Of a stretch of DNA of 64,000 bases, positions 35,003 through 63,148 are shown piece by piece (position 1 is the first letter of the stretch; each line of letters opens with the position of its first letter). The notes beneath the pieces were generated by a model. The model had not been told where the DNA came from and ran no database searches. It saw only the letters and a program-made list of their open reading frames with translations. This DNA comes from a virus (Duplodnaviria > Heunggongvirae > Uroviricota > Caudoviricetes), in the IMG/VR virus record IMGVR_UViG_3300010429_001737. One strand, given 5' to 3'. A program made the translations under genes and the position numbers.

Positions 35003-35026
35003 AATTAACAATAATATTTATAAAGG
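35003..35026 (+). promoter_or_regulatory. class A promoter-like motif AATTAACAATAATATTTATAAAGG
   Basis: One of at least seven near-identical copies, all 20-30 nt upstream of a start codon (or of a ribosome-binding site plus start). The TTTATAAA core is TATA-box-like, with an A-rich BRE-like element 5' of it. Confidence 0.6.
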
Positions 35027-35053
35027 ATTAATTCTTATACTTAATATTTAAAA

Positions 35054-37258
35054 ATGACGAAAAGATTATCAAAGAAACAGAGAAAAAATATTATCTATGG
35101 CGGAATCGGACTTGGTGCAATTTTGATATTAGTCATTGGGTTTTTTCTTATGGGTGGCTCTACTGGATTTATTTTGTTATGGGGTTCATTATCACAAACA
35201 CAATTGACTGGTGCAGATTCATGTTACGTTACTGATAGTGGGTCGACAACTACTGCAAAAGTTTGTTCTGGTGAATGTACGATGTCAGCACAATTAAATT
35301 GTAATACTATTACAGAAACGAATTTACGTGTAGTATTTAGAACAAATGCTCAGTATGGGAAGTATAATCAAAATGGAGTTTGGATTGCATTTGATAGAAA
35401 CGGTGACGGTGCATTAGAATCTTATACTTGGGGTGAAGCGCGGTTAATTTCTTATGATGGCTGGGAAGGAAATTATAAGACTGTTAAGAAATATGATGCG
35501 TTTGACCCAATAGTAACATTTCCGAAAGACGGTATACATGTTGGATATGATACTGTTAACAAAGTTGTGTATGTATGGAAAGATGGAGAAACTCAACAGA
35601 TAGCTGATACTTGTTGTCGTCAAATGTGTGAAGGTCCGTCTGGTCCAAGATGTTGTGCTGGTGCAGGGTATACTTGTTATAAGTCTCTATATACGTATTA
35701 TGTATATAAAATATCAGACGATGGTGTTACTTCTATTTACCCAACAGACCCATATAAATCAAATAATCAAGAAATGACAGAGGGTGATGTTAATACTTAT
35801 AAATGTGATGTTCCTGTTTACATAAATAATGTTGAAAAAGAAAGATTGTCCTATAGTGATAAAGTTCCTGGTATTAGAACTTCGTCAACATATTCTTTAA
35901 CAACAGGACAAGAGTTCAAATTTGATGGTAAGATTTTTTATACAATGAAGGATACGTCTAGGGCATGTAGTGTTGATGTATGTAATCCAGAAAAAACCGG
36001 AGTCATTAGTTGTAAAACTGATAGCAATGGATGTAAAGTTAAAAGTTCAACTGTAGAGTTGTGTTCAGGGGGCGCGAAATGTTTTGATTCACCAACTGGA
36101 GCATCATGTGAGTCTCCTATTTCAACAACTGTTGTTTTCTTAGCTGACAATGGTGAACAAACTACTGGGTTTGCCTCTGGACAAAACATTCATACTCAAG
36201 TGTCTGTATCTTCATCTAAAATTTCAAGTGCTACTGGAACATACGTTATAGTTGATTCTGATGGTAATGCTGTTTCTCCTGTTCAAAATAAGATTTTAGA
36301 TTTCAGTAAACCGAATAATTTTAAATTAGATTTTTCTCCTATTTCGACTAACGGAGAATATTATCTTAAAGTAACTTATACATATAGCGGACAGGAGAGT
36401 TCGACAAAGAAGTTCAGATTCAACATTGCTAATCAATTGTATGTTAATATTAAAACTTCTTCAATAGGTTCAAAGTTACAAGTTGGCTCTCCAATAACAA
36501 TCGAAATCAGAACTTCATCAGACGAAGAGGGTCGAGTAGCTGTTGCTGCTACAACAACTCCTACTGCCACAGCTACTATTAATGGTAAAGCTGTTAGCGT
36601 AAGTGATTGTAAACAAGAAACTACTGGTATTTATACATGTGTAACTACTGTTAACGAGGCCGGAACTCTATCAATAAAAGCTAGAGCCGAAAGATTTGGA
36701 TATATAGCTGAAAAAACAATTTCAGTTGGTGTTGATACTGCAGAAATATTCATTGAATTTTTAAATATAGATAATTATAAAAGAGGAGTTGATATTAACT
36801 CAAATAATATTATAGAATTTACAACTAAGAATTTAGCGCAGCAGCTGTTAGCTACGACAAATGAAGTTGAAATAATAAGACCGGGGCAAGCAATCGGAAG
36901 TGGGACTAAATTAACACCTAGCGGTTCAAACGGAAATTACAAGTTTACATTTTCTCCAACTTCAGAAGAAGGTGGATGGACAATTTATGTAAGAAGTGAA
37001 GCTCCAGGTTATGATAAGAAAGAAACTTTGCCTCAAATAATTAACGTTGCTCCTGGCAATATTCCAACTGAATGTGCATCAGATGATGAATGTTCATCCG
37101 GACAATTATGTATAAACGGTAGTTGTAGTGACCCAACTCCTAATTATCTGAAATATATCTTAATTGTAATAGGTATAATAGTTGTTGTAATAATAATTAT
37201 ATTAGTATTCAGATTCATTAAAAATAAAAAAACATCGACCGAGATGATTCCAATTTAA
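35054..37258 (+). CDS. large membrane-anchored surface protein (734 aa)
   Basis: N-terminal TM, Cys-rich modules, Thr/Ser-rich stalk, C-terminal helix IVIGIIVVVIIIILVF. Class A promoter 28 nt upstream of the ATG. Confidence 0.6.
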   Translation: MTKRLSKKQRKNIIYGGIGLGAILILVIGFFLMGGSTGFILLWGSLSQTQLTGADSCYVTDSGSTTTAKVCSGECTMSAQLNCNTITETNLRVVFRTNAQYGKYNQNGVWIAFDRNGDGALESYTWGEARLISYDGWEGNYKTVKKYDAFDPIVTFPKDGIHVGYDTVNKVVYVWKDGETQQIADTCCRQMCEGPSGPRCCAGAGYTCYKSLYTYYVYKISDDGVTSIYPTDPYKSNNQEMTEGDVNTYKCDVPVYINNVEKERLSYSDKVPGIRTSSTYSLTTGQEFKFDGKIFYTMKDTSRACSVDVCNPEKTGVISCKTDSNGCKVKSSTVELCSGGAKCFDSPTGASCESPISTTVVFLADNGEQTTGFASGQNIHTQVSVSSSKISSATGTYVIVDSDGNAVSPVQNKILDFSKPNNFKLDFSPISTNGEYYLKVTYTYSGQESSTKKFRFNIANQLYVNIKTSSIGSKLQVGSPITIEIRTSSDEEGRVAVAATTTPTATATINGKAVSVSDCKQETTGIYTCVTTVNEAGTLSIKARAERFGYIAEKTISVGVDTAEIFIEFLNIDNYKRGVDINSNNIIEFTTKNLAQQLLATTNEVEIIRPGQAIGSGTKLTPSGSNGNYKFTFSPTSEEGGWTIYVRSEAPGYDKKETLPQIINVAPGNIPTECASDDECSSGQLCINGSCSDPTPNYLKYILIVIGIIVVVIIIILVFRFIKNKKTSTEMIPI

Positions 37259-37260
37259 AA

Positions 37261-38376
37261 ATGAATAATAAGATTTTGCCTCTAATATTTATATCTTTGT
37301 TATTAGTTTTTACTGTATCTGCTCATATGCCTTTAACACATTGGGTTGATTTAGAGAAAGCCATTGATAAGGCGAGTGGGTCAACATTAGATTTATATGA
37401 TGCTTGTAAGAACCATCTTGATTTATGTTATGCCGGAGACACGTTAACAGATGTTTCTGTTATGTATTATTATACTTATTTTAAAAGATATTCTATAACA
37501 CATAGTCCAACTTTCTGTAGAGCATTAATTGACCAAGCAAGAGGAGAAGAAGAATTAGCATGTGCAGTTGGAGCTTGCATACATCAGGCCCAAGATTTAC
37601 CTTCGCATACACAAATGGTACCTTATGCAATCGAACATACATTTTTACCAAATCAAATCATACATCCGTTTGCAGAACAACATGAAGATAATATAGTAAA
37701 TAAACAAAACCCCGGTGCAAATGCAATTGCAATGGGAAAACTTGAAAGTTATAAAACATGTTCAGATTTATATAAAAGAGTGTTATCAGGAGAAAAAGAT
37801 TATAAAGGTATAGATTTAGATTCATTATTTGAAGCTTTCATTGCTCAGGTCCAAACGTCAGGATATAAAGGCATTTCATTTGGTAGAATTATGACAATTC
37901 CTTTCGCAATAGTAGCTGCGTATTTTGCCTTTATGGCGTTCTTTTTAACATTAATGATATTGATAGTTTTCAAGAAACTTGTTTATAGTGATAGAAGAAA
38001 GTGGTATCATTGGTTAACAGTGTCTGGTATTTTAATAGTCTTATTAATCATGGGAGGATTAGCGTTCGCATTTGCAGCTGGAGCTGGAATGACAACATTC
38101 CAATGGTTGATTTCACCAATAAGTAATTTTGTCCCAATCGGCGACGTTTCAAGTATTCAACAACAGACAATCGATAATACAGCTAATGTTCTGATTTATG
38201 GAGAAGCTTTCTTAGAGGGAAAAGACGCTTCCGGTATAAAATATCTCGAGGCTTCGAATGCTAAGATTATGACTCCATTGGTTGTAATATTAACAATTTT
38301 GATAGTTGCAACAATTTTACTGATATGGTTAAATTTAAGAACGCCGAAAAAACAGACCTCGTCATTTAGTATCTAG
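37261..38376 (+). CDS. membrane-anchored protein with a possible zinc-dependent phospholipase C / S1-P1 nuclease-like N-terminal domain
   Basis: After the signal peptide, H-x-x-THW...AIDKA and IHQAQDLPSH (H-x3-D-x3-H) loosely resemble the zinc-ligand motifs of PLC/P1 nuclease (HLWIVNRAIDI ... H-x3-D-x5-H). At least three C-terminal TM helices. Confidence 0.35.
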   Translation: MNNKILPLIFISLLLVFTVSAHMPLTHWVDLEKAIDKASGSTLDLYDACKNHLDLCYAGDTLTDVSVMYYYTYFKRYSITHSPTFCRALIDQARGEEELACAVGACIHQAQDLPSHTQMVPYAIEHTFLPNQIIHPFAEQHEDNIVNKQNPGANAIAMGKLESYKTCSDLYKRVLSGEKDYKGIDLDSLFEAFIAQVQTSGYKGISFGRIMTIPFAIVAAYFAFMAFFLTLMILIVFKKLVYSDRRKWYHWLTVSGILIVLLIMGGLAFAFAAGAGMTTFQWLISPISNFVPIGDVSSIQQQTIDNTANVLIYGEAFLEGKDASGIKYLEASNAKIMTPLVVILTILIVATILLIWLNLRTPKKQTSSFSI

Positions 38377-38392
38377 TGATATTATGTGACAA

Positions 38393-38423
38393 ATTTTATA
38401 TACTGGGTTTTGTTATAAAGAAT
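38393..38423 (+). promoter_or_regulatory. leader/promoter of the second giant gene (paralogous to 21167..21203)
   Basis: See the 21167 entry. Confidence 0.5.
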
Positions 38424-41400
38424 ATGAGAAATATATTTAAAAGTAATAAGATTTTCATATTCACGTTATTAATAATAACGATTTTTCTGATGACTGTTGT
38501 TTATGCTCTGAATAATTATGCTGTTTTTTATGTACCAAACAGTGCGAATGATACTTATATATCTAGCGTTTTATCAGAGAGGAATGATAATTTTGGGACA
38601 GAATCTTTGTTATGTATAAGTGGTCAGTCAGCGTCGATTCAAAACGCAATGATATATTTTAATTTTTCGGGTTTACCCGCTAATGCAACTATTACTAGTG
38701 CATCATTAAGTCTTTATGGCTCATCGGGTTCAACTGGTAGAAATGTTTTTATTTATTATGCATCTAATGACTGGGATGGTAGTGCAGCAACTTGGTTTTT
38801 AAGAAAACCCGGTGTTAATTGGACGACAGCCGGTGGAGACTATGACACACTAATATCTACAGGGACATATGTCAGTGGAAGAAAAAATTATGATGTTACA
38901 AACGCTATTAGAAATTTTGTTAATGGCACAAGAACTAATTATGGATTTTTTTTAACATCAGATTATAATCTTGGCGATTTGTGTTTTAATCAAATGGATT
39001 CTTTGGGTAGTAATTATGACCCGATTCTAAATGTAACCTGGGATTATCCATATCCTGCAACTGCTTTGATTACACCAGCTAATGGGTCAACTCAATCTTC
39101 TAGAACTGTAAACTTTGCTTGTAACATAACATTCAACGGGATAGATTCTAATGCAAATATAACTCAGGCTGATATTATGTATTTTAATGATTCAAGTATG
39201 GATGGTGACTCTCTAGTTGATTATATTAGTTTTAATACTACAAACGGGATTACTCCTCCTAATAAAACACTATATACTAATTGGACAACAACAGTGCCAT
39301 ATGATGGTACTTTTTATTGGTCTTGTTACTATGATATTGTATATGAAAATGGAAATGGATTTGGACTCTGGGCAGATAAAGATGCTCAATTCACTGTTGA
39401 CTCAGTGCCTCCTACAGTTACTTTTCAAACACCTACTCCTGTAAATGGTTCACGAAATATAACTAATTCAGCTACTATCAATGTAACAGTTTCTAGTGCA
39501 TCGTCGTTGGATACTTGCACTTTACAATGGAACGCAACTACAACGTTAACAAATTATACTATGACTAAAAGTGGAACGACATGTAATTACACAATTGCTA
39601 CTACTGATGGAACCACATATTATTTTAAAGTATTTGCTAATACATCAATTGGTAATTTGGGAAACACTAGTTTGAGAACCTTTAGAGAAAACGCAGAGCC
39701 AACAAATCCTAATATCGCGTTAACTCCATCCACAGCATATAAGAATACAACGTTAACATGTTCGGGCTCAGCAAGTTCAGATGCAGACGGTGACTCTGTA
39801 TCTTATTATTATCAATTTAATGATACAACTAGTATCATACAAGCTTATTCTACTACTAATACTTTTAATTGTAGTGCTTATGCAGCTTGTGCTAAGGGCG
39901 ACACAATATATTGTAATGTTAAAGCGTATGATTCATATGAATATAGTAACATTAATACAACAAGTGTTACTATATCAAACTCTCCTCCTGTTATTGTATC
40001 TTGGAATGTTTCTAATTCAACATGGAGTATATCCAGCGGGACAAACTTTTCTCTATATGAGAATGCAACTAACGGGACATATATTTTTAATGTAACTAGT
40101 GTTTCTGATGGTGATAGTGATACTGTTTTGTATGATTTTTACATCGACGGTTCGAGAAAATCTACTAGTTATACTCAGATATGGTATTCTTGGGTTCTTG
40201 GGTCTTATGCTGTTGGATATCATAATGTAACTGTATATGTTAACGACTCGTCAAATGCAATAACTAGTAAATATTGGAACGTGACTATTGTCGATAGTAT
40301 TAAACCATCTGTTACTGTCACGTCACCTATTATAAATAAATATTATAATTATAATACATCAATCAATCTTAACTACACAGCCACAGACACTCATAAACAA
40401 GCATGTTGGTTTAATATTGATAATGGAGCTAATACAACTATAACAAATTGTCTAAATACAACTTTTAATGTTTCTCAGGGTTCTCATACTGTAAAATTAT
40501 ATGTTAATGATACTTCTAACAACGTTAATATAACAAGTATCTCATTTACTGCTGATTCTATAAATCCTCAAGTAGCAATTGTTTATCCTACAAATATAAC
40601 ATATCAAACTGCCGTAACAGCAATAAATTACACAGTAAGTGATACTAATATACAAGCTTGTAAATATTCGACTAATGGTGGTATAACAAATACAACTATA
40701 ACATGTGGCACTAATATTACTGGCTTATCAGCATCACAAGGTTCAAACACATGGACAGTTTATGTTAATGACTCCGCTGGTAATAGTAATTCTTCTAGTA
40801 TTACTTTTTCTATGGACACACAAGCACCAACTATAACAATATCAATTCCACCATCCGATAATATTTGGTATAATTATAACACTAATGTTAACTTTACTGC
40901 TACGGATACTAATTTACAAGCATGTTGGTGGACAAATAACAGTGGAGTGAGTAATCATACTTTAGCAACGTGCGGAACTAATGTTACAGGACAGGTTTGG
41001 GATTCTGGAACTAATACTGTAAAAGTATATGCAAATGATTCCTTTGGTAATGTTAATTCAGCAACAAGAATTTTTAAGATAGATATGATAAAACCACAGA
41101 TAAATGTAACATATCCAGTGAACGGAAGCAACTTATTAACAGCATCTCTCACTCTGAATTACACAGTAAGTGATACTAATATACAAGCTTGTAAATATTC
41201 TTTAAATAGTGGTTTAACTAACACAACTATAACATGTGGAAATAATGTTAGTGGTTTAACTGCTGCTCAAGGTACTAACATCTGGACGGTTTATGTTAAT
41301 GATTCAGCTGGGAATGTGAATTCGTCGAGTACAACATTTTCTGTTGATAGTCAAGTTCCAACTGTATCTATTGTAATTCCGACAGCAAATGGGTTATGGT

Positions 41401-47400: not shown

Positions 47401-47621
47401 TAGGCAAATCGGGATTACCTATCGAGGTATTTTCTAAATTAGGGGCAACAAAGAATATTGCCGGATTGAAAGTTCCATATATCCTATTTTCTATATTATC
47501 AGCAGCTTTAGTGTTTATAGCTTGTAACTTTTTCTTATTCAGAAAATTGAGAATTGGATTAGCTCTTGCGATAGTATTTGCAATAATCGCTTTCTTTGGT
47601 ATTTTATTAGTGATTCCATAA
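38424..47621 (+). CDS. giant surface protein (about 3065 aa): paralog of the 13657 gene with more than 10 Ig-like repeats, LamG domain, poly-Gly linker and C-terminal TM helices
   Basis: Start set at MRNIFKSNKIFIFTLLIITIFLMTVVYA, directly after the shared leader TTTTGTTATAAAGAAT. Tandem units of the form ...NYTVSDTN.QACK....TCGTNITG...VYVNDSAGN..... LIGWWKFDE ... DEFRIYNTNLSVTDVSNIY (LamG). QQGGGGGGTTTP and a C-terminal hydrophobic tail. Confidence 0.8.
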   Translation: MRNIFKSNKIFIFTLLIITIFLMTVVYALNNYAVFYVPNSANDTYISSVLSERNDNFGTESLLCISGQSASIQNAMIYFNFSGLPANATITSASLSLYGSSGSTGRNVFIYYASNDWDGSAATWFLRKPGVNWTTAGGDYDTLISTGTYVSGRKNYDVTNAIRNFVNGTRTNYGFFLTSDYNLGDLCFNQMDSLGSNYDPILNVTWDYPYPATALITPANGSTQSSRTVNFACNITFNGIDSNANITQADIMYFNDSSMDGDSLVDYISFNTTNGITPPNKTLYTNWTTTVPYDGTFYWSCYYDIVYENGNGFGLWADKDAQFTVDSVPPTVTFQTPTPVNGSRNITNSATINVTVSSASSLDTCTLQWNATTTLTNYTMTKSGTTCNYTIATTDGTTYYFKVFANTSIGNLGNTSLRTFRENAEPTNPNIALTPSTAYKNTTLTCSGSASSDADGDSVSYYYQFNDTTSIIQAYSTTNTFNCSAYAACAKGDTIYCNVKAYDSYEYSNINTTSVTISNSPPVIVSWNVSNSTWSISSGTNFSLYENATNGTYIFNVTSVSDGDSDTVLYDFYIDGSRKSTSYTQIWYSWVLGSYAVGYHNVTVYVNDSSNAITSKYWNVTIVDSIKPSVTVTSPIINKYYNYNTSINLNYTATDTHKQACWFNIDNGANTTITNCLNTTFNVSQGSHTVKLYVNDTSNNVNITSISFTADSINPQVAIVYPTNITYQTAVTAINYTVSDTNIQACKYSTNGGITNTTITCGTNITGLSASQGSNTWTVYVNDSAGNSNSSSITFSMDTQAPTITISIPPSDNIWYNYNTNVNFTATDTNLQACWWTNNSGVSNHTLATCGTNVTGQVWDSGTNTVKVYANDSFGNVNSATRIFKIDMIKPQINVTYPVNGSNLLTASLTLNYTVSDTNIQACKYSLNSGLTNTTITCGNNVSGLTAAQGTNIWTVYVNDSAGNVNSSSTTFSVDSQVPTVSIVIPTANGLWFNYQTNVNYTASDVNLQACWYTNDSGLINTTVTCGTNITGKTWPQGLNTVTVYANDSYGGIGSATRTFNIDTINPLLSIVYPLSGANFSTTTIGVNYTVSDTNLNTCKWTKNGGSTNTTLTCGTNITSTFTEGLNTVIIYVNDSANNQNSTNVTFRVDTIGPILNVTSPGNNLRFRDQYDYKVLLNVSAADAGVGVIGSYWYSLNGATNVTFTSPTYVTAQLNNNTIKIYVNDSLGNTVNSSLILFNLTFTPTITDINISNASNSYSRNSTLANLIGWWKFDENHLNISYDSSSNRINGSLVGGNILASFENGVDGFALDCGGSPTYTNVTGLIGDRGVLLYSTGGDGLACMNSPYITDKPVAPNYTIFYYGKGWARVGIWNGSKYVSYVEDVETGCRTNCGANDIPTTCNGGAAYTDWKLFKVVACENASTSPQLWAYARHASRGIENGSYFDFITEGPIWYSKGKIGNAIVFDGHQNYVSMPMSVTSPYSFATNNFSISLWFKTNQSTGTLFMVGNNSQDYYSMYMNGGRLYFNYSTGDVQSMNSSTLYNDNRWHHAVGIRNGVRTGLLYVDNVLVAEDSDNGGSLTGIDILSNTFYIGRDYSGTSYYNGMVDEFRIYNTNLSVTDVSNIYLATNPTFEEYSTLDVSVTTADTDTSLGSLFYSWYVEGVSVLTGTAETLLTWIFDKRSSVVEVYINDTNGYQTYQSWNVSTTFINPTINFTSPTPDNNTITRTTSFIVNFTGTEANRNSGWITMNNVNYTATCTGTSPYVCNRTFTGLTEGMYNYTAYVNDSVGNQNNTETRRYVVDLSGPNFVFNWQSPADITTNNTFGRYINISYNITDAWSNINASTVIFYYKGNSSSSNVQYYQNGSAHSGWFSPAEFTSNVSNTWRFDLSDNYILPATYNFGEVTMENTVHSVNTLSGSNNYVWIELLNVSNTKNYSFFEVMANSTAVAGNLRVYYCNSSYSTGNPVLSSNCIQFNTLSATQTFNHVHTTNSAHQIISMPINIASGSIGSVRVTSTSYFLLRGTFGTWYVYNIANTSRTNAIKTTANNGNAWTSQTYTVDSHLHQFDGSDAFRYYVCANDTSGNTNCSSERSDIFDYANLPPSAPVIINPQQGNYSGNITINYTAAVSPNAYAISFYNITLYNATDETLVTTIRTNNSNNLSYIWNSAGVGDWNYTIHVKACDINGYCSIGMSEELVIENTAPNGTLLTPLNDSITSNVSVNFTANVSDSLTGVKNATLNVYKSGTLFNQSTITLSSELQATIGIIVTLVDGVYDWFYTIFDMAGNSFTTTNNTLTIDTISPVITIHAPISKNYNVNVSLPLNYSVSDLHTQACWWNLDGDSNNTITCGTNTTFNTSSGEEHILYFYANDSAGNVGVSNVSFTTNLGPPSISLDYPTDAQWVNSGLNLLLKYTAVDEDGISECQLWLKNGVWHLNNTQYSPTSGQQYNFTLNLTDSSYEWNVWCNDSGNNGGWGNPLSNNSFIIDSAYPQISFGDNVLASESNVSADSIFVNVSVVEINEANITFYLYNESYYPINVTTSTSNLRYINYTSLDDGLYRYNVTITDLANNRNSTETRVIRLDNEAPTFIIDSPGAFTAYPYNNSIGLNVSVTDNYIGTDTCFYNIYDEFGLLTIDNSTIPCISNTTFSLPDGDVDYFITLYANDTIGNSFDTSFMFRIRTVKPAVNLQNPSLNQYINRTTNIQFNFTVSNRDIAFDTCQLWGNWTDIWHLNQSVNSITKDVVKNFPSLLNLSEASYSYNVWCNDTLNNSDFGASNYTFTLDVTYPSVNITTVSGTTFSSTTFSLGYNISDLHMGTCGYKIDDGSWVDTLTCNESSKSLTLTAGTYNISVRGIDLAGNTNSSTITITTTAPSGQQGGGGGGTTTPKGNRSWEMTTETGTQKYELTMVKGGIRNREIHFTNSEANETFVKVSCEGDLCKYITLSDTDITLPVGMDIVTVIDMTIKLPVDLDDGTYVNNIRGIDQDNQNKIVTVEITIGKSGLPIEVFSKLGATKNIAGLKVPYILFSILSAALVFIACNFFLFRKLRIGLALAIVFAIIAFFGILLVIP
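40300..41910 (+). repeat. in-frame tandem array of Ig-like domain repeats (about 264 bp units in an alternating A/B pattern, giving a super-period of about 530 bp) inside the 38424 gene
   Basis: DNA-level recurrence: ACAGTAAGTGATACTAATATACAAGCTTGTAAATATTC appears at about 40630 and again at about 41160, with a diverged copy at about 41690. Protein-level recurrence: NYTVSDTN.QAC...TCGTN.TG...VYVNDSAGN. Confidence 0.6.
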
Positions 47622-47644
47622 ATTAATAATAATATTTATAAAGA
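47621..47644 (+). promoter_or_regulatory. class A promoter-like motif (AATTAATAATAATATTTATAAAGA)
   Basis: Copy upstream of the 47664 gene. Confidence 0.55.
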
Positions 47645-47663: not shown

Positions 47664-48881
47664 ATGAAAAAAGCTATTATAATAAGCGTAATACTCGGTA
47701 TAATAGTATTATTGATAATCGGTGTTATGATGTATAGTTCGACTTCTAATATTGTTCAACAAAGTAGTTTTTCATCTGGAGTAAGTCTTGGAAATATTAA
47801 TGCTAAGTTTACTATTCCAACATCATATTCAGTTACTCAAACTGTTTTAACTGGAACAGGTGAATGTCGAAATATGCCAGGTGGAGGTCAGGTTTGTTGT
47901 GATAACGATGGATGGGTGTTGTGCGACGACGGTAGTGGTGGATATGATTGTCATTATGGTAGTTGTAGTAACACAGATAATTTTCGATGTGATGTTCCTG
48001 GTCATGTTAGATGTGGAAACACTAATACGTGTGGGCCGAGTCATGAATTCTGTGAAAATTGGTTAAACGGGGATAAATCTTGTAATTCAGATAGGAGTAG
48101 ATGTTGTAATAATGGCGGCTGGATAATTGATTATAGTGCGATGTTGTGTTGTCCACCTGCGGTACCTTTTTATGCTGGAGCAAATTCATGTGTAGAATAT
48201 CCTACTCAAAATAGTGATAATTTCTATACTCGTAACTCAGAATGTAAAGCTTATGCTGTAGAAGACCCAAATACTCATAATCGACAAAGTATTTACACTG
48301 AAGAAGTTTGTAGTGGAACAACTTATAAAAAATGTGCAATAGGCAGTGTTTCTTCAAATCCACAATTTTATAATAAATGGTATATTAATGCTGTTACAGT
48401 TGGAAAATGTGGGATAGATTGTTTAAAAAATTCTGATTGCCCAGACACAGGACCAGACAGTATTATTAGTATAAATGGAGAAAAGCATTGTAATGGCGTT
48501 GTTTTGATGCAAAAATCAGAAAGAGGAATATGTAATAATAACAAATGTTCTACTCAGATATTCGATGAGATTTTAGAAACATGTGACTATCAATGTGGAG
48601 AACTTTGTACTCCAGATGACGAAGTCTGTTTGGACAGTGGCGTTGGTTGTATTTCATTTTCATGTGTTCAAAATTCAACTATGTGTTCATCAAACAATCA
48701 AAGTGTTTTAATGTGTGATAATAATTCTTATGTCACTAAAGAATTATGTAATAATGGTTGTGAGGCTGGTAAATGTAAACCTGATAAACGAATTTACTTG
48801 TATGCTGGAATATTCTTTTTCATAGTTGCAGCATTAATCTTTGGAGTCATAGGTTATAAGTTTTTGTTTAAGAGAAAATGA
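47664..48881 (+). CDS. Cys-rich membrane-anchored protein
   Basis: Start chosen at MKKAIIISV, 20 nt after the class A promoter (the track ORF begins 15 nt earlier). More than 45 Cys. C-terminal TM helix. Confidence 0.55.
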   Translation: MKKAIIISVILGIIVLLIIGVMMYSSTSNIVQQSSFSSGVSLGNINAKFTIPTSYSVTQTVLTGTGECRNMPGGGQVCCDNDGWVLCDDGSGGYDCHYGSCSNTDNFRCDVPGHVRCGNTNTCGPSHEFCENWLNGDKSCNSDRSRCCNNGGWIIDYSAMLCCPPAVPFYAGANSCVEYPTQNSDNFYTRNSECKAYAVEDPNTHNRQSIYTEEVCSGTTYKKCAIGSVSSNPQFYNKWYINAVTVGKCGIDCLKNSDCPDTGPDSIISINGEKHCNGVVLMQKSERGICNNNKCSTQIFDEILETCDYQCGELCTPDDEVCLDSGVGCISFSCVQNSTMCSSNNQSVLMCDNNSYVTKELCNNGCEAGKCKPDKRIYLYAGIFFFIVAALIFGVIGYKFLFKRK

Positions 48882-50066: not shown

Positions 50067-50090
50067 AATTAACAATAATATTTATAAAGG
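50067..50090 (+). promoter_or_regulatory. class A promoter-like motif
   Basis: Exact copy upstream of 50110. Confidence 0.6.
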
Positions 50091-50109: not shown

Positions 50110-51801
50110 ATGAGAAATAAAGATAAGAAGAAGCTGATGTATGTTGGGTTATTTTCAATTGGAATTCTGTTAGTTTTGGGTGTTATAATTTTTGCTATGT
50201 CAAAAATTGAACAACATTCTTACACGACAGGAGCTGTTGAATATATAGAATCTCCAGTATTTGGATATTATGAGTGCAGTGCAGCTGGTAAGTCTATTAA
50301 AAGTAATCCTGTTACTATATATAATACGCAAGGAACTTATGATGTTTTACGTTGTTCTCCTTATACAGAAGAATGTACATTTTCTATTATCGGCGAATCA
50401 ACTAGTATTTTAGGAAGAAGAGTTGCTTATCGAATTTGTCCTTCTTATGATACTTCTACGAATATGTGTGATTTAGAAAGATATCTCGGGGCCGGAGATG
50501 TTCCTTGGTTTAGTGACGGCGGTGTTAATAGGATTAATATTCCTGGCACATATACTTATCAAAACAAAATCTTAGTTAAATATCAAGAATGTTTAGGTAT
50601 TTCTTATGGAACTACTTGTGCAGGTGTTTGGAAAGAGAAAGGTAGTGTTGCAAAATGGTATCAAACATATACCCCTTTCATTTTATGGTATACTTCTCCG
50701 TTAACAGGAAGACATGAGTATACTTCATTAATTGAAGGTTGTAAGTTCCCAGCAAGTGATACTTATGCTAATGGCTATTTGATGCCTGGTGTAGACAAGT
50801 TAATAAATGCTTTGACAGATGTTAAGGGTCAGTCATTGACACAGACTTCAACATCCTTAACAGAATTAGAACCACATAAAACTAGAAACGTCATTGAAGC
50901 ATTTATTCCTCTTAATGTAAATAATGTTCAGTTTGTAACTTATAATGGACAACAAGGATATTGTTTAAATAGAAATATTTATAAAATTGCAACAGTAACT
51001 ACTAAAACGGGCACTTCTAAAATAGTTGATACAACTTATAACAATATTATAGCTGGTCCTTCAAATGGAATAGAATGTTGTCCACAAGATAAAGAACCAA
51101 CAAGAAAGTGCTCGACTGATTATAAATGGCATCCAATTGACAATGCAGAATGTAGCTATTATAATCCATGTCAAGGTGTTGATTGGTATCCAGGTGGTCC
51201 AAAAACATTGATTAAGTATAATTGTATAAGTGGTAAGTGTGTAAAAGATAGTAAAGTTGTAGAATGTACAAATAATGATGATTGCATCGGCAATCCAAAC
51301 GGAGGCGTTTGTGATACATTATTATGGAAATGTAGTAGTATTACACCACCATTACCAAATGGCACATGTCCTGATTTTTGTAAAAAAGACTTGGATTGTT
51401 TTAATTGTGGAGATAACTTTAAATGTAGTGGAGCTGGTTGGTTTTCAGATGGAGTATGCAAAAAAACAGATAATAACGGGAAACTACCTTGCGAATCTTG
51501 TACTAAGTGGGCGATGAATATATTTAAGAGTGATGCTGATAAATGTGAAGCTCAGAGTATTATTCGAACTACTTATAATGGATTTTGGGACTACATTAAC
51601 CCGTTAAATTGGATTAAAAGTGGGATTGATATTACAGGAATAACAAATATGAACATTATGTGTCCAATATTCTTCTTAATCGTTGGAATATTACTATTTA
51701 TATTATTCCTAATAACTATGATTGCTATATTATTAATTACCGGTAGTGCACTTTTAGTAAAAAAATTATTTTCTCGAAGCTCTAACAAACGAAAAAAATG
51801 A
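50110..51801 (+). CDS. Cys-rich membrane-anchored protein (563 aa)
   Basis: Class A promoter 20 nt upstream. N-terminal TM, Cys-rich C-terminal half, C-terminal TM. Confidence 0.55.
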   Translation: MRNKDKKKLMYVGLFSIGILLVLGVIIFAMSKIEQHSYTTGAVEYIESPVFGYYECSAAGKSIKSNPVTIYNTQGTYDVLRCSPYTEECTFSIIGESTSILGRRVAYRICPSYDTSTNMCDLERYLGAGDVPWFSDGGVNRINIPGTYTYQNKILVKYQECLGISYGTTCAGVWKEKGSVAKWYQTYTPFILWYTSPLTGRHEYTSLIEGCKFPASDTYANGYLMPGVDKLINALTDVKGQSLTQTSTSLTELEPHKTRNVIEAFIPLNVNNVQFVTYNGQQGYCLNRNIYKIATVTTKTGTSKIVDTTYNNIIAGPSNGIECCPQDKEPTRKCSTDYKWHPIDNAECSYYNPCQGVDWYPGGPKTLIKYNCISGKCVKDSKVVECTNNDDCIGNPNGGVCDTLLWKCSSITPPLPNGTCPDFCKKDLDCFNCGDNFKCSGAGWFSDGVCKKTDNNGKLPCESCTKWAMNIFKSDADKCEAQSIIRTTYNGFWDYINPLNWIKSGIDITGITNMNIMCPIFFLIVGILLFILFLITMIAILLITGSALLVKKLFSRSSNKRKK

Positions 51802-53280: not shown

Positions 53281-53491
53281 ATAATTACAATGGATATATC
53301 ACTAGCATTAATGGTTGTTAATGTTGTAAGAAATAGTTTATACTGTGTCATAAACTATCTAAAAGAAATTATCTAAATGTTGTCTAAGCTTCTATAACAA
53401 AGTTTAAATACTAGGTTTTATATTATTCTTAATCTAAATAAAACAAAGTAGTTACAAAAATGCTTATACAATTGAAAGGAGGTAACATAAA

Positions 53492-54589: not shown

Positions 54590-54598
54590 AATAAAGAC

Positions 54599-54632: not shown

Positions 54633-54664
54633 TCATAAATAAGTTACACTAAGGAATAGAAACA

Positions 54665-54689
54665 TTTATATACTAGATTATGTTATATA
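54665..54689 (+). promoter_or_regulatory. class B promoter-like motif TTTATATACTAGATTATGTTATATA
   Basis: Near-identical copy at 61651..61675. A perfect palindromic relative lies at 61916..61938. Confidence 0.5.
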
Positions 54690-54705: not shown

Positions 54706-55509
54706 ATGAAACGAACAATAACATTAATAATACTGAGTATTTTCTTACTAAGTTTAGTAAGCGCTGAATTAAGAGTATATGTCGGTAATCCACAAATGAC
54801 TTTTAATAATCCAGAAACTACTATTATACCTAATTATATTGAACTATCCAATAAAAACGATTTCTCTATAAACATTGAAATAGCATTCCCTGAAAATGTA
54901 ACGTTTTTTGAAAATAATATATCAATGTTGCCAGGTGAAAATGTTTCAATAGACTATGCTATTATGCTTAATGACGATAAACAAAACGTAACATTTACAA
55001 TCCCTGTGACATTTAACGGTGAAAATCAGTCGTTTACTGTGCCTCAAACAATAATAGTAAAATATTTCAATGATACTGTTATTAATACTACTAACCACAC
55101 ACAACAAAATAATTCTGTTCCTAACTCGGGCGGCGGCACTTCAGCATCAGTTGGAGTATCTGATTCTGTGTCCGTAACATATATAAATAATTCACATAAT
55201 GTAACAACATCAGTATCTAACGAATCTATAACTACATTAACAACTGAAGCTAGTGATACTCAAGATACAAACTCTTCAGTTGATGAAACATATACACCAG
55301 AATATCCAATTGTTAATTGGTTAACTGTAACAGTGTTTACAATCATAGTTATCTTAGTAATTGCGTATTTAATATATCATTTCAGAAAAAAGAAAAGACT
55401 TGAGAAAGAACAAGATGAGAAACTTAGAGAAAACGAAAGAGAAGTTAATAATTCAGAATTCTTTGATGAAAAAGAAGAACCTAATGAAAGTGATAAATCC
55501 ATAAATTAA
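54706..55509 (+). CDS. secreted protein with C-terminal TM and acidic tail
   Basis: Class B promoter upstream. Signal peptide. NxS/T-rich. TM followed by a KKKRLEKEQDEK tail. Confidence 0.55.
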   Translation: MKRTITLIILSIFLLSLVSAELRVYVGNPQMTFNNPETTIIPNYIELSNKNDFSINIEIAFPENVTFFENNISMLPGENVSIDYAIMLNDDKQNVTFTIPVTFNGENQSFTVPQTIIVKYFNDTVINTTNHTQQNNSVPNSGGGTSASVGVSDSVSVTYINNSHNVTTSVSNESITTLTTEASDTQDTNSSVDETYTPEYPIVNWLTVTVFTIIVILVIAYLIYHFRKKKRLEKEQDEKLRENEREVNNSEFFDEKEEPNESDKSIN

Positions 55510-55527
55510 CAATAATATTTATAAAGG
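55504..55527 (+). promoter_or_regulatory. class A promoter-like motif
   Basis: Exact copy upstream of 55548. Confidence 0.6.
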
Positions 55528-55547
55528 GTAAATTCGTATATATTTTA

Positions 55548-56279
55548 ATGAAAACTATCTTATCACTGAGTATAGCATTATTATTAATCATAGGTTCGTT
55601 ATCATTTGTAAATGCCGCATCATCTAATATCATAGAAGACAAAAAATGCTCTGAACTAGGTGGTACTTGTATACAAGGCATCGTAGCAGATGATTCTTTT
55701 TGTAAATACAGAATATTATCCGTCTTTTCTAAAACACCTTTATGTAAAAAACAACCACAATATTCATGTAATGGAGAAATCAAATATACAGCAGATTGCC
55801 GAGGTTATTGTTGTGTTCCAACAACACCTTCTGATGAATTAATTACTTGTTCGACAAACCAAGAATGCTATGATGAATATAAAAGTTGTTATTATCATTG
55901 TACAAATAACAAATGTGCTCAAATATTCACTATAGCACCATTGCCTAATTACCCTAACTGTGAAAATGAAGTTAAATGCACAACACCGGGTGAAAGAAAA
56001 TGCCAAAATAACGTCGTTATGGAATGTCAAACCCTTCCCTGTGCAACATTATGGTGTGCAGCAAAAGGTAATTGTAATTGTCCAATGCAATGGAAAAACA
56101 TAGAAGTATGTAAAGATGCTAACGTATGTAAAGATGGCCGATGCGTTCCAACAACACCTTCTGGTGAATGCGAATCATATGAAAAAGCTTTTTCAGTAGA
56201 AGGGAATAAATATTGTGTTAAAACAGATGCTGTTCAACAAATCTTATACTTATTAGATAAATTCGGAAGAAAGATATAA
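55548..56279 (+). CDS. Cys-rich secreted protein (243 aa)
   Basis: Class A promoter 21 nt upstream. Signal peptide. About 36 Cys. Confidence 0.55.
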   Translation: MKTILSLSIALLLIIGSLSFVNAASSNIIEDKKCSELGGTCIQGIVADDSFCKYRILSVFSKTPLCKKQPQYSCNGEIKYTADCRGYCCVPTTPSDELITCSTNQECYDEYKSCYYHCTNNKCAQIFTIAPLPNYPNCENEVKCTTPGERKCQNNVVMECQTLPCATLWCAAKGNCNCPMQWKNIEVCKDANVCKDGRCVPTTPSGECESYEKAFSVEGNKYCVKTDAVQQILYLLDKFGRKI

Positions 56280-60228: not shown

Positions 60229-60229
60229 A

Positions 60230-60475
60230 ATGAAAAAACAGACTAAAAGAAGATTAATTTATTTTGGTGTTGGGTTAACAGTAGCGTTAATCGTATTCTT
60301 TATTTATAATTACTTTTTTCCAATTGAGATATCAATGACCGAGATGTCCGCAATAGGAACAGGAACGGAGACTCAAGCTGTCTCACCAGAGATTGTCAGT
60401 AGTATAATCGGCGCTTTAGGTGGAATAGTTGGCGTTGTTATTGAAAGTATGATATATACCAAACATCGAAGATAA
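60230..60475 (+). CDS. small membrane protein
   Basis: TM helices at both ends. Confidence 0.4.
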   Translation: MKKQTKRRLIYFGVGLTVALIVFFIYNYFFPIEISMTEMSAIGTGTETQAVSPEIVSSIIGALGGIVGVVIESMIYTKHRR

Positions 60476-60505
60476 TTTTATATACTTATTATTATTATAC
60501 TATTC

Positions 60506-60817
60506 ATGAACTTTAAAGAGAAAATCAAAAAGAATTGGGATGTATATATTCTAATCGGGTTATTAGGAAGTATTTTCTTGTTCTATTTAGCATTAGAATT
60601 ATGTACCGCTGATGTATCATGTTTAGGTTATATTATACCGATACTTATTTCCTTTCAAGTAACTATGCCGTTCTTTGTCATAGCTATAATTAGAAACATC
60701 AGAAATAAAACATTAGGCCATTGGAGATGGATTGTTATAGGTATAATTGTGATTTTATATATCTATGTTTTCTTAGCAGATTTTCGGGTATATAATCCGC
60801 TAATATGGTTCAAATAA
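60506..60817 (+). CDS. small polytopic membrane protein
   Basis: Three TM helices. Confidence 0.4.
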   Translation: MNFKEKIKKNWDVYILIGLLGSIFLFYLALELCTADVSCLGYIIPILISFQVTMPFFVIAIIRNIRNKTLGHWRWIVIGIIVILYIYVFLADFRVYNPLIWFK

Positions 60818-60851
60818 CAAAGTTTATATATTTCTTTTTGTTACATAGTTT

Positions 60852-61130: not shown

Positions 61131-61135
61131 AATAA

Positions 61136-61159
61136 AATTAACAATAATATTTATAAAGG
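61136..61159 (+). promoter_or_regulatory. class A promoter-like motif
   Basis: Exact copy upstream of the ribosome-binding site and start at 61214. Confidence 0.6.
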
Positions 61160-61213
61160 TCTAATTCTTTGTATACTTATGACATTTATACAAGTGAAAG
61201 GAGGTATCGTATA

Positions 61214-61567
61214 ATGGCAAAGAAAAATCAAATTGGAGCAATATTAGCAGTAATTGCTCTATTGGCAGTATTGCTGTTAGGAATCGTAGAAGCCTCTGGT
61301 ATAATCTCAGTATCAAGTTTCAATACGTGGATTGTTTTAGCAATCATCGCTGTTGGTGCTGTACTAGGATTTTTGAACGTTAAAGACGGCGAATCTCTAC
61401 CATTCATGGTTGCTGCATTAGTAATTGCATCAGCTTTAACAGGATTAGCTGCATTACCATTTGTAGGAGACTGGTTACAAGTAATCTTCGGAAGATTAGC
61501 ATTGTTAATCTGGCCTGCTGCATTAGTCGTAGCTGGTATGGTATTCTGGAAAAAAATAAAGAATTAA
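61214..61567 (+). CDS. highly expressed small polytopic membrane protein (117 aa, Ala/Leu/Val-rich)
   Basis: Class A promoter followed by a perfect GAAAGGAGGT ribosome-binding site 8 nt before ATG 61214. The upstream extension in the ORF track is probably not translated. Four hydrophobic helices. Locally higher GC. Oligo-T tract after the stop. Confidence 0.6.
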   Translation: MAKKNQIGAILAVIALLAVLLLGIVEASGIISVSSFNTWIVLAIIAVGAVLGFLNVKDGESLPFMVAALVIASALTGLAALPFVGDWLQVIFGRLALLIWPAALVVAGMVFWKKIKN

Positions 61568-61607: not shown

Positions 61608-61614
61608 TATAAGT

Positions 61615-61634: not shown

Positions 61635-61650
61635 TAATTCTATAGCAATG

Positions 61651-61675
61651 TTTATATACTAGATTATGTTATATA
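61651..61675 (+). promoter_or_regulatory. class B promoter-like motif, followed by the AAAAGGAGGT ribosome-binding site
   Basis: Same 25-mer as at 54665. Drives the 61711 gene. Confidence 0.5.
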
Positions 61676-61710
61676 TTTTATGATATATAACATAAAAGGA
61701 GGTTTTATCA

Positions 61711-61902: not shown

Positions 61903-61915
61903 ACAAAGAAACCTT

Positions 61916-61938
61916 TATATACTAGAATCTAGTATATA
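61916..61938 (+). promoter_or_regulatory. perfect 23-bp palindrome TATATACTAGA-A-TCTAGTATATA (class B core; candidate operator/TATA)
   Basis: 11-nt arms around a central A. Followed by the GAAAGGAGGT ribosome-binding site and ATG 61971. Confidence 0.5.
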
Positions 61939-61970
61939 TTTTATGATAAAACAAATGAAAGGAGGTCACA

Positions 61971-62204
61971 ATGAATAAGTATTTTAAGTATGGATTATAT
62001 ATGCAAATACCGACAGCCGGCATATTAGGCGCATTTGTCCTATATTGGCTAATTAATAACGTTAATCTATTATCGCTATTAAGTGGTATATTTTTTGCTG
62101 CAATAGCTCTATACTTTATAGCTTCGTTCGTTCTATTAATAGTTGGTGCATTCGTAGAGGCTGATAGAAAGAAGAAGGAAGCAGAAAACGGTGAATATTA
62201 TTAA
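61971..62204 (+). CDS. small membrane protein, possible partner of the SPFH protein
   Basis: Palindromic class B promoter and GAAAGGAGGT ribosome-binding site. Two TM helices. Overlaps the SPFH gene start. Confidence 0.45.
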   Translation: MNKYFKYGLYMQIPTAGILGAFVLYWLINNVNLLSLLSGIFFAAIALYFIASFVLLIVGAFVEADRKKKEAENGEYY

Positions 62205-63081: not shown

Positions 63082-63082
63082 A

Positions 63083-63121
63083 TTTTTATTTTTTCCTTTT
63101 TATTTTTATTTTTTCTTTATT
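63083..63121 (+). terminator. oligo-T tract downstream of the SPFH gene
   Basis: AATTTTTATTTTTTCCTTTTTATTTTTATTTTTTCTTTATT, followed directly by a class A promoter. Confidence 0.4.
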
Positions 63122-63124
63122 AAA

Positions 63125-63148
63125 AATTAACAATAATATTTATAAAGG
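63125..63148 (+). promoter_or_regulatory. class A promoter-like motif
   Basis: Exact copy upstream of the 63176 mini-gene. Confidence 0.6.

What the first reader, a model, noticed from the sequence alone, without database searches (positions are those of the whole stretch)
35003..63148. Highly conserved 24-nt promoter-like motif (AATTAACAATAATATTTATAAAGG) repeated before at least seven structural and membrane genes
Exact or near-exact copies lie at 35003, 47621, 50067, 55504, 61136 and 63125. Variants lie at 34063, 13015, 11143 and 10771. Each copy sits 20-30 nt upstream of a start codon or ribosome-binding site. The TTTATAAA core with an A-rich element 5' of it is what an archaeal TATA box plus BRE looks like. 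Spacing to the ATG fits short leaders. This level of conservation suggests one dedicated transcription factor or a viral programme, probably late genes, controlling the Cys-rich/membrane protein regulon.
Basis: seen in the sequence. Interest (0 to 1): 0.55.

Follow-up and report, generated by a model that had tools for sequence, protein, structure and literature searches.

The report
Repeated archaeal-type promoter in mobile element
The repeated 24-base motif is real and is most likely a strong archaeal-style promoter (TATA box plus upstream element) that starts leaderless messages for a set of cysteine-rich membrane-protein genes in an uncharacterised ~108-kb virus- or plasmid-like element; it is a new example of a known kind of signal.

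Summary
Confirmed. The window holds 12 copies of the motif: 5 exact and 7 variants. Four more lie in the same ~108.6-kb element outside the window. None is expected by chance. All are intergenic and point the same way as the gene downstream. The palindromic TTTATAAA octamer ends exactly 21 nt before the ATG in 9 of the 12 copies, and 22 or 29 nt before it in the others. No Shine-Dalgarno (SD) site lies between. This spacing holds across the element: 18 of 96 gene starts have a TATA-like octamer 21 nt upstream, against 0.2% of other ATGs. TATA-proximal genes and SD-bearing genes never overlap (0/22 vs 26/74). That is the geometry of an archaeal promoter with a leaderless mRNA. Sigma-70-type and phage-polymerase-type readings do not fit. 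A second, looser promoter class (AAACC-TTTATATA-CTAG) precedes the replication genes and other genes. The 24-nt class precedes the Cys-rich membrane proteins. Near-identical motifs with the same spacing occur in four distantly related elements, at syntenic positions where this could be checked. One family member was binned with a Woesearchaeota genome. Transcription start sites, timing (early or late) and any dedicated factor remain untested. Closest known analogues are the halovirus HF2 intergenic promoter repeats and the SIRV2 early-promoter consensus. It is a new member of a known kind, of moderate interest.

The parts
10768..10791 (+). Class A promoter, shifted variant (CGTTAATAACAATATTTAAATATT). 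TATA octamer 10782-10789, 21 nt before the ATG at 10811 (53-aa ORF).
11143..11166 (+). Class A promoter variant (AATTAATAATAATATTTATAAACT). TATA 11157-11164, 21 nt before the ATG at 11186.
13015..13038 (+). Class A promoter variant (GATTAATAACAATATTTATAAACC). TATA 13029-13036, 21 nt before the ATG at 13058 (181-aa membrane protein, 3.3% Cys).
21161..21184 (+). 21 nt before the ATG at 21204, the likely true start of the ORF listed from 21126.
33132..33155 (+). 21 nt before the ATG at 33175 (multi-pass membrane protein).
34063..34086 (+). Class A promoter variant (TATA = TTTAAATA). It overlaps the stop codon of the upstream gene. 21 nt before the ATG at 34106 (295 aa, 7.5% Cys).
35003..35026 (+). 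Exact class A promoter. The ATG at 35054 lies 29 nt after the octamer, so the predicted leader is about 8 nt with no SD. Drives genes 35054-37258 (734 aa, Cys-rich) and 37261-38376.
47621..47644 (+). Class A promoter (2 mismatches), starting at the last base of the stop codon of the 3065-aa gene. 21 nt before the ATG at 47664, the likely true start rather than 47649. Drives a 405-aa protein (8.9% Cys) and a 390-aa protein.
50067..50090 (+). Exact class A promoter. 21 nt before the ATG at 50110 (P0001, 563 aa, 5.3% Cys), followed by genes at 51798 and 52078 (9.5% Cys). The motif holds the same position before the P0001 homologue in L096 and L104.
55504..55527 (+). Exact class A promoter containing the stop codon of the upstream gene. 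22 nt before the ATG at 55548 (243 aa, 10.7% Cys). The unit runs on to about 60475.
61136..61159 (+). Exact class A promoter with a leader. An ATG at 61179 sits at the predicted start site, then the SD AAAGGAGGT, then the real ATG at 61214 (117-aa membrane protein).
63125..63148 (+). Exact class A promoter preceded by five T5-T6 runs (63082-63120, a terminator-like tract). The ATG at 63176 (39-aa ORF) lies 29 nt after the octamer.
38387..38406 (+). Example of the second promoter class (class B): tgacaaat-TTTATATA-ctgg, 21 nt before the ATG at 38424 of the 3065-aa protein. Other class B octamers start at 175, 11915, 29373, 53403, 54665, 60477, 60823, 61651 and 61914.

Best explanation
The 24-nt motif is the upstream half of an archaeal-type core promoter. 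TTTATAAA (motif positions 15-22) would be the TATA box bound by TBP. The A-rich AATAATA directly 5' of it would be the BRE bound by TFB. Because the TATA octamer is a perfect palindrome, the flanks must set the direction: AATAATA upstream and GG downstream. The host RNA polymerase would then start about 22 nt after the octamer. In most copies that is the A of the ATG, with T at -1, giving a Py/Pu initiator. These mRNAs would be leaderless and translated without a Shine-Dalgarno site. Genes further down each unit use a strong SD (GAAAGGAGGT). A further conserved block, (A)AAATTAAy at about -45 to -37, lies beyond the usual BRE. It is inferred to be a site for an activator or a special TFB/TBP, or a strength-enhancing element. 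This block marks a separate promoter class for Cys-rich membrane and surface proteins, distinct from the element's more ordinary AAACC-TTTATATA-CTAG promoters. Shown: the sequence, copy number, placement, orientation, spacing, exclusivity with SD, and conservation in relatives. Inferred: start site at the ATG, binding by TBP/TFB, an archaeal host (possibly DPANN), high promoter strength, and any class-specific factor or timing.
For: 1. There are 8 matches at up to 3 mismatches against 0 in shuffles. In all, 16 copies occur in about 89 kb of the element, all intergenic and all oriented with the downstream gene, including three on the opposite strand.
2. The octamer-to-ATG spacing is exactly 21 nt in 9 of 12 window copies.
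3. Across the element, 18 of 96 gene starts have a T[TA]TA[TA]A[TA]A octamer ending 21 nt upstream, against 2.2 per 1000 other ATGs.
4. The 22 genes with such an octamer 19-23 nt upstream and the 26 genes with an SD do not overlap (Fisher p = 0.0006).
5. This matches published archaeal geometry: an 8-bp TATA box centred near -27, an A-rich BRE just upstream, an A/T-rich element near -10, Py/Pu at -1/+1, and leaderless first genes that lack an SD and start with AUG (PMC5316973).
6. An independent control used 76 chance genome hits to the 21-mer. In archaeal genomes 8 of 11 hits lie within 70 nt upstream of an ORF, and 4 of 11 lie at 21-23 nt. In bacterial genomes the figures are 10 of 65 and 0 of 65 (p = 0.0003 for each comparison).
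7. Sigma-70-like sites are not enriched (126 against 110.6 +/- 9.8). No hairpin terminators end the + strand units; instead there are clusters of T runs.
8. The same motif with the same 21-nt rule occurs in four other elements: L096, L104/L109, L112 and L115. Their shared proteins are only 23-61% identical to those of this element. In L096 and L104 the motif sits at syntenic positions.
9. A homologue of the element's conserved ATPase was deposited under 'Candidatus Woesearchaeota archaeon'. The element's family-4 UDG matches the family-4 and archaeal type-4 UDG models about equally.
10. The motif region has no RNA structure (z from -0.65 to +2.15).
Against: No transcription start site or expression data exist, so the ATG is only a proxy for +1. 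The host is not identified: the Woesearchaeota link rests on one 4-kb binned contig. The long SD (TGAAAGGAGGT) resembles that of Firmicutes more than the short anti-SD tails I recall for model archaea (my own knowledge, not tested here). In a 31% GC genome, A/T-rich elements such as the -10 region are weakly diagnostic. The BRE assignment is by position only, since AATAATA is A-rich but not the GAAA type seen in the element's other promoters. Relatives L083-L086, which carry closer homologues of P0001 (33-52% identity), lack the motif, so its conservation does not simply follow that protein's phylogeny.
Confidence: 0.8

Rival explanations
1. The motif is a promoter for a polymerase encoded by the element itself, such as a T7/T3-like single-subunit enzyme. 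Under this reading the whole 24-mer is the recognition site and transcription starts at its 3' AAGG.
For: Near-perfect conservation over 24 nt is typical of such promoters. The ends resemble the T3 promoter (AATTAAC...TAAAGG), which I recall from memory. The reading would also explain why the motif is specific to one gene class.
Against: No RNA polymerase domain appeared in any of the roughly 50 proteins scanned with Pfam, PHROGs or NCBIfam, across about 89 of the 108.6 kb. Known archaeal viruses encode no RNA polymerase (PMC5569661 abstract). A start inside the motif would give a 19-nt leader of fixed length without an SD, in an element that uses strong SDs elsewhere. The same 21-nt TATA-to-ATG rule holds for unrelated promoters in the element and for archaeal chromosomal loci. 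About 20 kb of the element was not seen.
Confidence: 0.05
2. The motif is a bacterial promoter. Either TATAAA is a -10 box used with a phage sigma factor or activator (T4-late-like TATAAATA), or it is a sigma-70 promoter of an AT-rich bacterial host such as Patescibacteria or Firmicutes.
For: TATAAA resembles a -10 box. The SD GAAAGGAGGT is Firmicutes-like. The element is found in 0.1-0.2 um filtrates that also carry ultra-small bacteria.
Against: No -35 element lies at 16-18 nt: the conserved block directly abuts the octamer, where the sigma-70 spacer would be. Sigma-70-like sites are not enriched or placed before genes. A -10 reading leaves an SD-less leader of about 14 nt and does not explain the exact 21-nt spacing or the exclusivity with SD. 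None of 65 bacterial genome hits to the 21-mer has the ORF spacing, against 4 of 11 archaeal hits. There are no hairpin terminators. Almost no PHROG or phage similarity was found.
Confidence: 0.07
3. The repeats are primarily DNA-level sites, such as recombination or cassette-boundary sites, replication or packaging signals, or a miniature mobile repeat. Any promoter activity would be incidental.
For: The repeats are identical, dispersed and sit at gene boundaries. The element carries an integrase.
Against: Conservation stops sharply at the 24-mer and its flanks are unrelated. Orientation always follows the gene. The fixed distance to the ATG, the palindromic octamer without other dyad symmetry, and the lack of hairpin potential all fit a promoter. 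Syntenic retention in relatives whose proteins have diverged to 23-35% identity argues for a stable regulatory role rather than cassette shuffling.
Confidence: 0.05

Closest known systems
Intergenic repeats (IRs) of halovirus HF2 and other haloferacalesviruses (Russ, Pfeiffer and Dyall-Smith 2021, PMC8707807)
   Same: Both are two classes of short, highly conserved intergenic repeats in a large archaeal virus genome. Each contains an AT-rich TATA box with a BRE position just upstream, and each is conserved in sequence and position among related viruses. In HF2, one class heads the long transcript that covers the morphogenesis genes.
   Different: HF2 repeats are 58 and 29 bp, unrelated in sequence, few in number (7 + 2) and sit in a GC-rich haloarchaeal context. 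Their promoter activity and start sites were shown experimentally. Here nothing is measured. There are 16 copies, most units appear leaderless, and the host lineage is different and unknown.
Consensus early-gene regulatory sequence of SIRV2 and other Sulfolobales viruses (Bhoobalan-Chitty et al. 2024, PMC11065993)
   Same: In both, a near-identical BRE + TATA (TTTAWATA) promoter is repeated before many otherwise unrelated small genes of one virus. The regulatory sequence is far better conserved than the genes it controls, and it can be used to define a regulon.
   Different: In SIRV2 the regulon is early anti-defence genes, and a wHTH protein (Aca8) is proposed as its repressor. Here the regulon is Cys-rich membrane and surface proteins, its timing is unknown, and no regulator was found.
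Generic archaeal core promoter with leaderless mRNA (e.g. Thermococcus onnurineus transcriptome, PMC5316973; Sulfolobus and Haloferax figures cited there)
   Same: The shared features are an 8-bp A/T TATA box about 27 nt upstream of +1, an A-rich BRE, an A/T-rich -10 region, Py/Pu at -1/+1, and leaderless first genes that start with AUG and lack an SD.
   Different: Ordinary cellular promoters are degenerate. Here 22-24 nt are nearly invariant, and conservation extends about 8 nt beyond the BRE.
T7/T3-type phage promoters
   Same: Both are about 23-24 nt, nearly invariant and repeated before gene blocks.
   Different: No cognate polymerase gene was found. The geometry relative to the ATG and the absence of an SD do not fit.

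Membership tests
Archaeal BRE/TATA core promoter | An 8-bp A/T-rich TATA box centred about 26-27 nt upstream of the transcription start | tested here: inconclusive
   The octamer ends 21 nt before the ATG in 9 of 12 copies, and in 18 of 96 genes across the element. This places it at -29 to -22 if +1 is the A of the ATG. The start site itself was not mapped.
Archaeal BRE/TATA core promoter | A purine/A-rich BRE immediately 5' of the TATA box | tested here: met
   AATAATA is invariant in 10 of 12 window copies and in the copies found in the relatives. It is A-rich but not the GAAA type found in the element's class B promoters.
Archaeal BRE/TATA core promoter | Pyrimidine/purine initiator at -1/+1, and a leaderless first gene with AUG and no SD | tested here: met
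   The base before the ATG is T in 9 of 12 copies. All downstream starts are ATG. None of the 22 TATA-proximal genes has an SD, against 26 of 74 others.
Archaeal BRE/TATA core promoter | Read by the TBP, TFB and RNA polymerase of an archaeal host | not testable with these tools
   Only indirect support exists: the archaeal-versus-bacterial placement control, a family member deposited as Woesearchaeota, oligo-T terminators without hairpins, and a family-4 UDG that matches the archaeal type-4 model about as well as the general family-4 model.
Virus or mobile-element intergenic promoter repeats (HF2 IR type) | A repeat specific to intergenic regions and conserved in sequence and genomic position among related elements | tested here: met
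   All 16 copies are intergenic. The same motif lies before the P0001 homologue and after the giant protein in L104/L109, and before the P0001 homologue in L096. It is also present in L112 and L115.
Virus or mobile-element intergenic promoter repeats (HF2 IR type) | Demonstrated promoter activity and a mapped start site | not testable with these tools
   This needs a reporter assay, primer extension or RNA-seq.
Bacterial sigma-70 promoter | -35 and -10 hexamers separated by 16-18 nt, with a start 6-8 nt after the -10 | tested here: not met
   TTAACA and TATAAA within the motif are only 8 nt apart, and there is no conserved -35 in the upstream flank. Sigma-70-like sites are at background level.
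Single-subunit phage RNA polymerase promoter (T7/T3/SP6 type) | A cognate polymerase gene in the same genome | tested here: not met
   No RNA_pol domain was found in any protein scanned across about 89 of the 108.6 kb. About 20 kb was not seen.

The most novel reading that the evidence does not exclude
The upstream (A)AAATTAAyAATAATA block may be the recognition site of a dedicated activator or an alternative TFB/TBP, either host-encoded or encoded by the element. This factor would switch on a conserved regulon of disulfide-rich surface and envelope proteins. The regulon would belong to a previously undescribed family of integrase-bearing, HerA-ATPase-encoding mobile elements of ultra-small (DPANN, possibly Woesearchaeota) archaea. 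If so, it would give the first defined promoter class and regulon for that group.
Probability: 0.25. Interest if true: 0.6.

Novelty: new member of a known kind. Interest (0 to 1): 0.4.

Why it matters
The motif gives a sequence-only handle on the transcription units of a large element that is almost entirely without annotation. The element is widespread: 99.9-100% identical copies occur in a New York sewage virome, activated sludge and other samples. The motif corrects several gene starts, splits the genes into at least two promoter classes, and marks out a regulon of Cys-rich membrane proteins. Because the motif and its 21-nt rule are shared by relatives from groundwater and wastewater, they could be used to find and annotate this family. 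This follows the approach used for SIRV2 early genes. If the host link to DPANN archaea holds, the motif would describe promoter and leaderless-mRNA architecture in a lineage with no experimental transcription data. The promoter mechanism itself is conventional.

Tried and rejected
- Megablast of 22 kb against phages found no match.
- PHROGs, Pfam and NCBIfam scans of about 50 proteins found no capsid, terminase, RNA polymerase or transcription factor.
- tblastn of the primase-helicase against phages hit only through its intein.
- Single-protein scans of IMG/VR found no close relatives.
- The exact motif in IMG/VR gave two unrelated chance hits, L001 and L002.
- The genome-collection scan gave only single hits. 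These were useless for finding relatives but served as the archaeal-versus-bacterial control.
- A profile search with the P0001 family found nothing new.
- The AlphaFold model of P0001 was too poor to use (pLDDT 47.6).
- PDB sequence searches of the 546-aa, 424-aa and 60-aa proteins were uninformative.
- Strain variants are 99.9-100% identical, so polymorphism-based footprinting was impossible.
- The Borg-like tandem-repeat idea was rejected: only 5 tandem-repeat rows were found, none Borg-like.
- No tRNA genes or Rfam families were found.
- The RNA-structure idea was rejected.
- P0012 is absent from the phage and plasmid collections.
- Literature searches for a description of this family found none.
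Full report
**Observation**

The consensus AATTAACAATAATATTTATAAAGG occurs exactly at 35003, 50067, 55504, 61136 and 63125. Copies with 2-3 mismatches lie at 11143, 34063 and 47621. That is 8 matches against 0.00 in 100 dinucleotide-preserving shuffles. All 12 window copies are on the + strand, as are essentially all genes of the window.

Flanking DNA of the same element was recovered from public assemblies. It holds one more exact copy (L089 15649) and three copies on the opposite strand, each facing its own gene (L110 1219, 1893, 2994). Every copy is intergenic, and only 4.5% of the sequence is non-coding. Conservation ends sharply at the motif edges.

**Context**

The window is part of a contig of about 108.6 kb. 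Copies 99.9-100% identical to it occur in a New York sewage virome (SRR5007150; PMC7300365), an activated-sludge assembly, a JGI metagenome and an NCBI MAG. GC content is about 31%.

The element encodes:
- a PrimPol/AAA_25 primase-helicase that carries a LAGLIDADG intein;
- an endonuclease I-like protein;
- an SNF2 helicase;
- a JAB/ThiF pair;
- a family-4 UDG;
- an SPFH protein;
- a tyrosine integrase.

From about 11.9 to 68.5 kb it carries a long run of genes, most of whose products have an N-terminal transmembrane or signal segment. These include 2500-aa and 3065-aa LamG-domain proteins and several proteins with 3-11% Cys.

It has no detectable similarity to known phages or plasmids. A conserved 546-aa protein (P0012) has 47 homologues, several of them interrupted by inteins. 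Its model is confident (pLDDT 85) and has a HerA/FtsK-type ATPase fold (Foldseek E = 2e-12). Whether the element is a virus or a conjugative or integrative element is therefore open.

**What the motif is**

The key feature is geometry. The palindromic octamer TTTATAAA (motif positions 15-22) ends exactly 21 nt before the ATG in 9 of the 12 window copies. The distance is 22 nt in one copy and 29 nt in two. No Shine-Dalgarno (SD) site lies between. The base before the ATG is T in 9 copies.

This rule is not peculiar to the motif. In an 80-kb composite of the element, 18 of 96 gene starts have a T[TA]TA[TA]A[TA]A octamer ending 21 nt upstream. No other distance scores more than 3, and the rate for the 3160 other ATGs is 2.2 per 1000. 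The 22 genes with such an octamer 19-23 nt upstream and the 26 genes with an SD do not overlap (p = 0.0006).

This is the published archaeal pattern (PMC5316973):
- an 8-bp TATA box centred near -27;
- an A-rich BRE (the TFB recognition element) just upstream;
- an A/T-rich -10 element;
- Py/Pu at -1/+1;
- leaderless first genes that use AUG and lack an SD, with SDs on leadered and internal genes.

In the few leadered units (61136, 61651, 61914) an ATG or A still sits 21 nt after the octamer, and it is followed by GAAAGGAGGT and the real start.

**Tests against bacterial readings**

- The two hexamer-like parts of the motif (TTAACA, TATAAA) are 8 nt apart. The position where a -35 would lie is not conserved.
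- Sigma-70-like sites are at background level (126 against 110.6 +/- 9.8). No hairpin terminators end the + strand units. Several units end instead in clusters of T5-T6 runs at 54590, 61568 and 63082.
- A scan of 185,579 genomes with the 21-mer ATTAAYAATAATATTTATAAA gave 76 single, apparently chance hits. I used these as a control. In the 11 archaeal loci, 8 hits lie within 70 nt upstream of an ORF of at least 60 aa, and 4 lie at 21-23 nt. Those four are Hydrothermarchaeota, Nanoarchaeota, Methanobacteriaceae and Woesearchaeota. In the 65 bacterial loci the figures are 10 and 0 (p = 0.0003 for each comparison).
- No RNA polymerase gene was found in about 89 of the 108.6 kb. Known archaeal viruses have none (PMC5569661 abstract).
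- The motif region has no RNA structure.

**Two promoter classes**

Besides the 24-mer class (class A), a looser class B precedes the genes of the replication module and many others. Its form is (a/g)AAAC(c/a)-TTTATATA-CTAG...GTAT, and it obeys the same 21-nt or SD-leader rules. It also serves the 3065-aa protein.

Class A units hold nearly all the Cys-rich proteins. Among proteins of at least 100 aa, 8 of 18 in class A units have at least 3% Cys, against 1 of 29 in other units (p = 0.001).

**Comparative evidence**

Homologues of P0001 (the gene after 50067) at 33-52% identity lack the motif (L083-L086). L083 instead has a palindrome, CTAAGATTAATCTTAG, three times, in at least one case directly abutting a TTTATAAA octamer.

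Four other elements carry the motif with the same 21-nt spacing:
- L096 has 3 copies in 6.6 kb. One lies directly before a P0001 homologue that is 23% identical.
- L104/L109, an IMG/VR contig, has 4 exact copies and 1 looser copy. The order is giant protein, motif, two genes, motif, P0001 homologue, as in the window.
- L112, a 69-kb groundwater contig, has at least 3 copies. Its P0012 homologue is 61% identical, and it also encodes DsbA and VKOR.
- L115, from a 0.1-um groundwater fraction, has about 3 copies. Its P0012 homologue is 50% identical.

The consensus across elements is (A)AAATTAAyAATAATA-TTTATAAA-(g), then 21 nt, then ATGAA. The signal is thus much better conserved than the proteins it precedes. 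That argues for function and for a conserved recognising factor.

The 47%-GC relative L116 has only an ordinary GAAACA-TTTAAATA promoter. One P0012 homologue is deposited as 'Candidatus Woesearchaeota archaeon'. Together with the small-filter sources, this makes a DPANN host plausible but unproven.

**Mechanism, and what is inferred**

Inferred: TBP binds TTTATAAA. TFB reads AATAATA and, with the downstream GG, sets direction on a symmetric TATA box. RNA polymerase starts at the ATG. The extra (A)AAATTAAy block at about -45 to -37 lies outside the usual BRE footprint. It is the best candidate for a class-specific factor site or a strength element. No regulator was found, and 'late' timing is untested.

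Caveats: there are no start-site data, the host is unknown, and the long SD resembles that of Firmicutes.

**Comparison and novelty**

The closest known cases are two. The halovirus HF2 intergenic repeats form two classes, have experimentally shown promoter activity, and are conserved in sequence and position across the genus (PMC8707807). The SIRV2 early-gene consensus is a repeated BRE + TATA sequence better conserved than its genes (PMC11065993). The present motif is a new member of that kind, in an undescribed family of elements. Searches for a prior description of this family found none.

Noticed in passing
window 167-186, 11907-11926, 29365-29384, 38387-38406, 53395-53414, 54657-54676, 60469-60488, 60815-60834, 61643-61662, 61906-61925: A second, looser promoter family: (a/g)AAAC(c/a)-TTTATATA-CTAG..GTAT. 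It follows the same 21-nt TATA-to-ATG rule or has an SD-bearing leader. It precedes the replication genes, the 3065-aa protein and several small genes. The ATAC...GTAT dyad after the TATA box could be an operator.
   Followed up: partly
L089 17563-19203 (-), equivalent to window coordinates 69533-71173, outside the window; L110: The element carries a tyrosine integrase and a conserved 546-aa HerA/FtsK-fold ATPase (AlphaFold pLDDT 85). The ATPase has 47 homologues in metagenomes, several interrupted by inteins and one deposited as Woesearchaeota. None occurs in the phage or plasmid collections. Virus versus conjugative element is unresolved.
   Followed up: partly
window 11944-63081: A long run of consecutive genes, most encoding proteins with an N-terminal transmembrane or signal segment. 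Several are type-I membrane proteins with 3-11% Cys, and two are giant LamG-domain proteins (2500 and 3065 aa). A relative (L112 11607-13520) encodes DsbA and VKOR, which points to extracytoplasmic disulfide formation.
   Followed up: partly
window 1497-3460: A cluster of small ORFs with a JAB deubiquitinase-like protein (1932-2558), a ThiF/E1-like protein (2560-3246) and a 73-aa ORF (3239-3460) that by eye looks ubiquitin- or ThiS-like, though it has no Pfam hit. The cluster resembles ubiquitin-like conjugation or Cap2/Cap3-type modules.
   Followed up: no
window 5254-8343: A PrimPol + AAA_25 primase-helicase is interrupted by a LAGLIDADG intein (residues ~237-591). The intein's only NCBIfam match besides the generic intein N-terminal domain is to the intein-containing model for archaeal RNA polymerase subunit A''.
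   Followed up: partly
window 61179, 61680, 61943: In the three units with SD-bearing leaders, an ATG sits exactly at the predicted start site, 21 nt after the TATA octamer. It is out of frame with, or terminates before, the real start. It may be an initiator preference or a tiny leaderless upstream ORF.
   Followed up: no
window 21126/21204, 38376/38424, 47649/47664, 61169/61214, 62191/62206: Mechanical ORF starts are probably too far upstream. Promoter or SD positions indicate the second coordinate of each pair as the true start.
   Followed up: partly
L092 3617-4239, equivalent to window coordinates -4452 to -3830, just upstream of the window: A 620-bp divergent intergenic region lies between the leftward and rightward gene blocks. 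It holds two tandem copies of AGTATATATTTTATATACT and outward-facing TATA boxes, and may be a control or origin region.
   Followed up: no
L083 3939-4075 and 86, 7775, 8912: A relative that lacks the motif has three 20-nt tandem repeats (ATTATAAATTCGGTATACCG). It also has the palindrome CTAAGATTAATCTTAG three times, at least once directly abutting a TTTATAAA octamer. This may be its own promoter-specific operator.
   Followed up: no
window 26842-27038 and 63579-63609: A 57-nt tandem repeat (3.5 copies) lies inside the 944-aa ORF. A strong 14-bp hairpin followed by a T run lies on the - strand in the 63296-63692 gap.
   Followed up: no
whole element and relatives (e.g. window 53470-53491, 61195-61213; L083, L085, L112): The Shine-Dalgarno sequence is unusually long and uniform (TGAAAGGAGGT) across the family. 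This implies a host 16S 3' tail that extends ...CCUCCUUUCA, and it could help identify the host.
   Followed up: no
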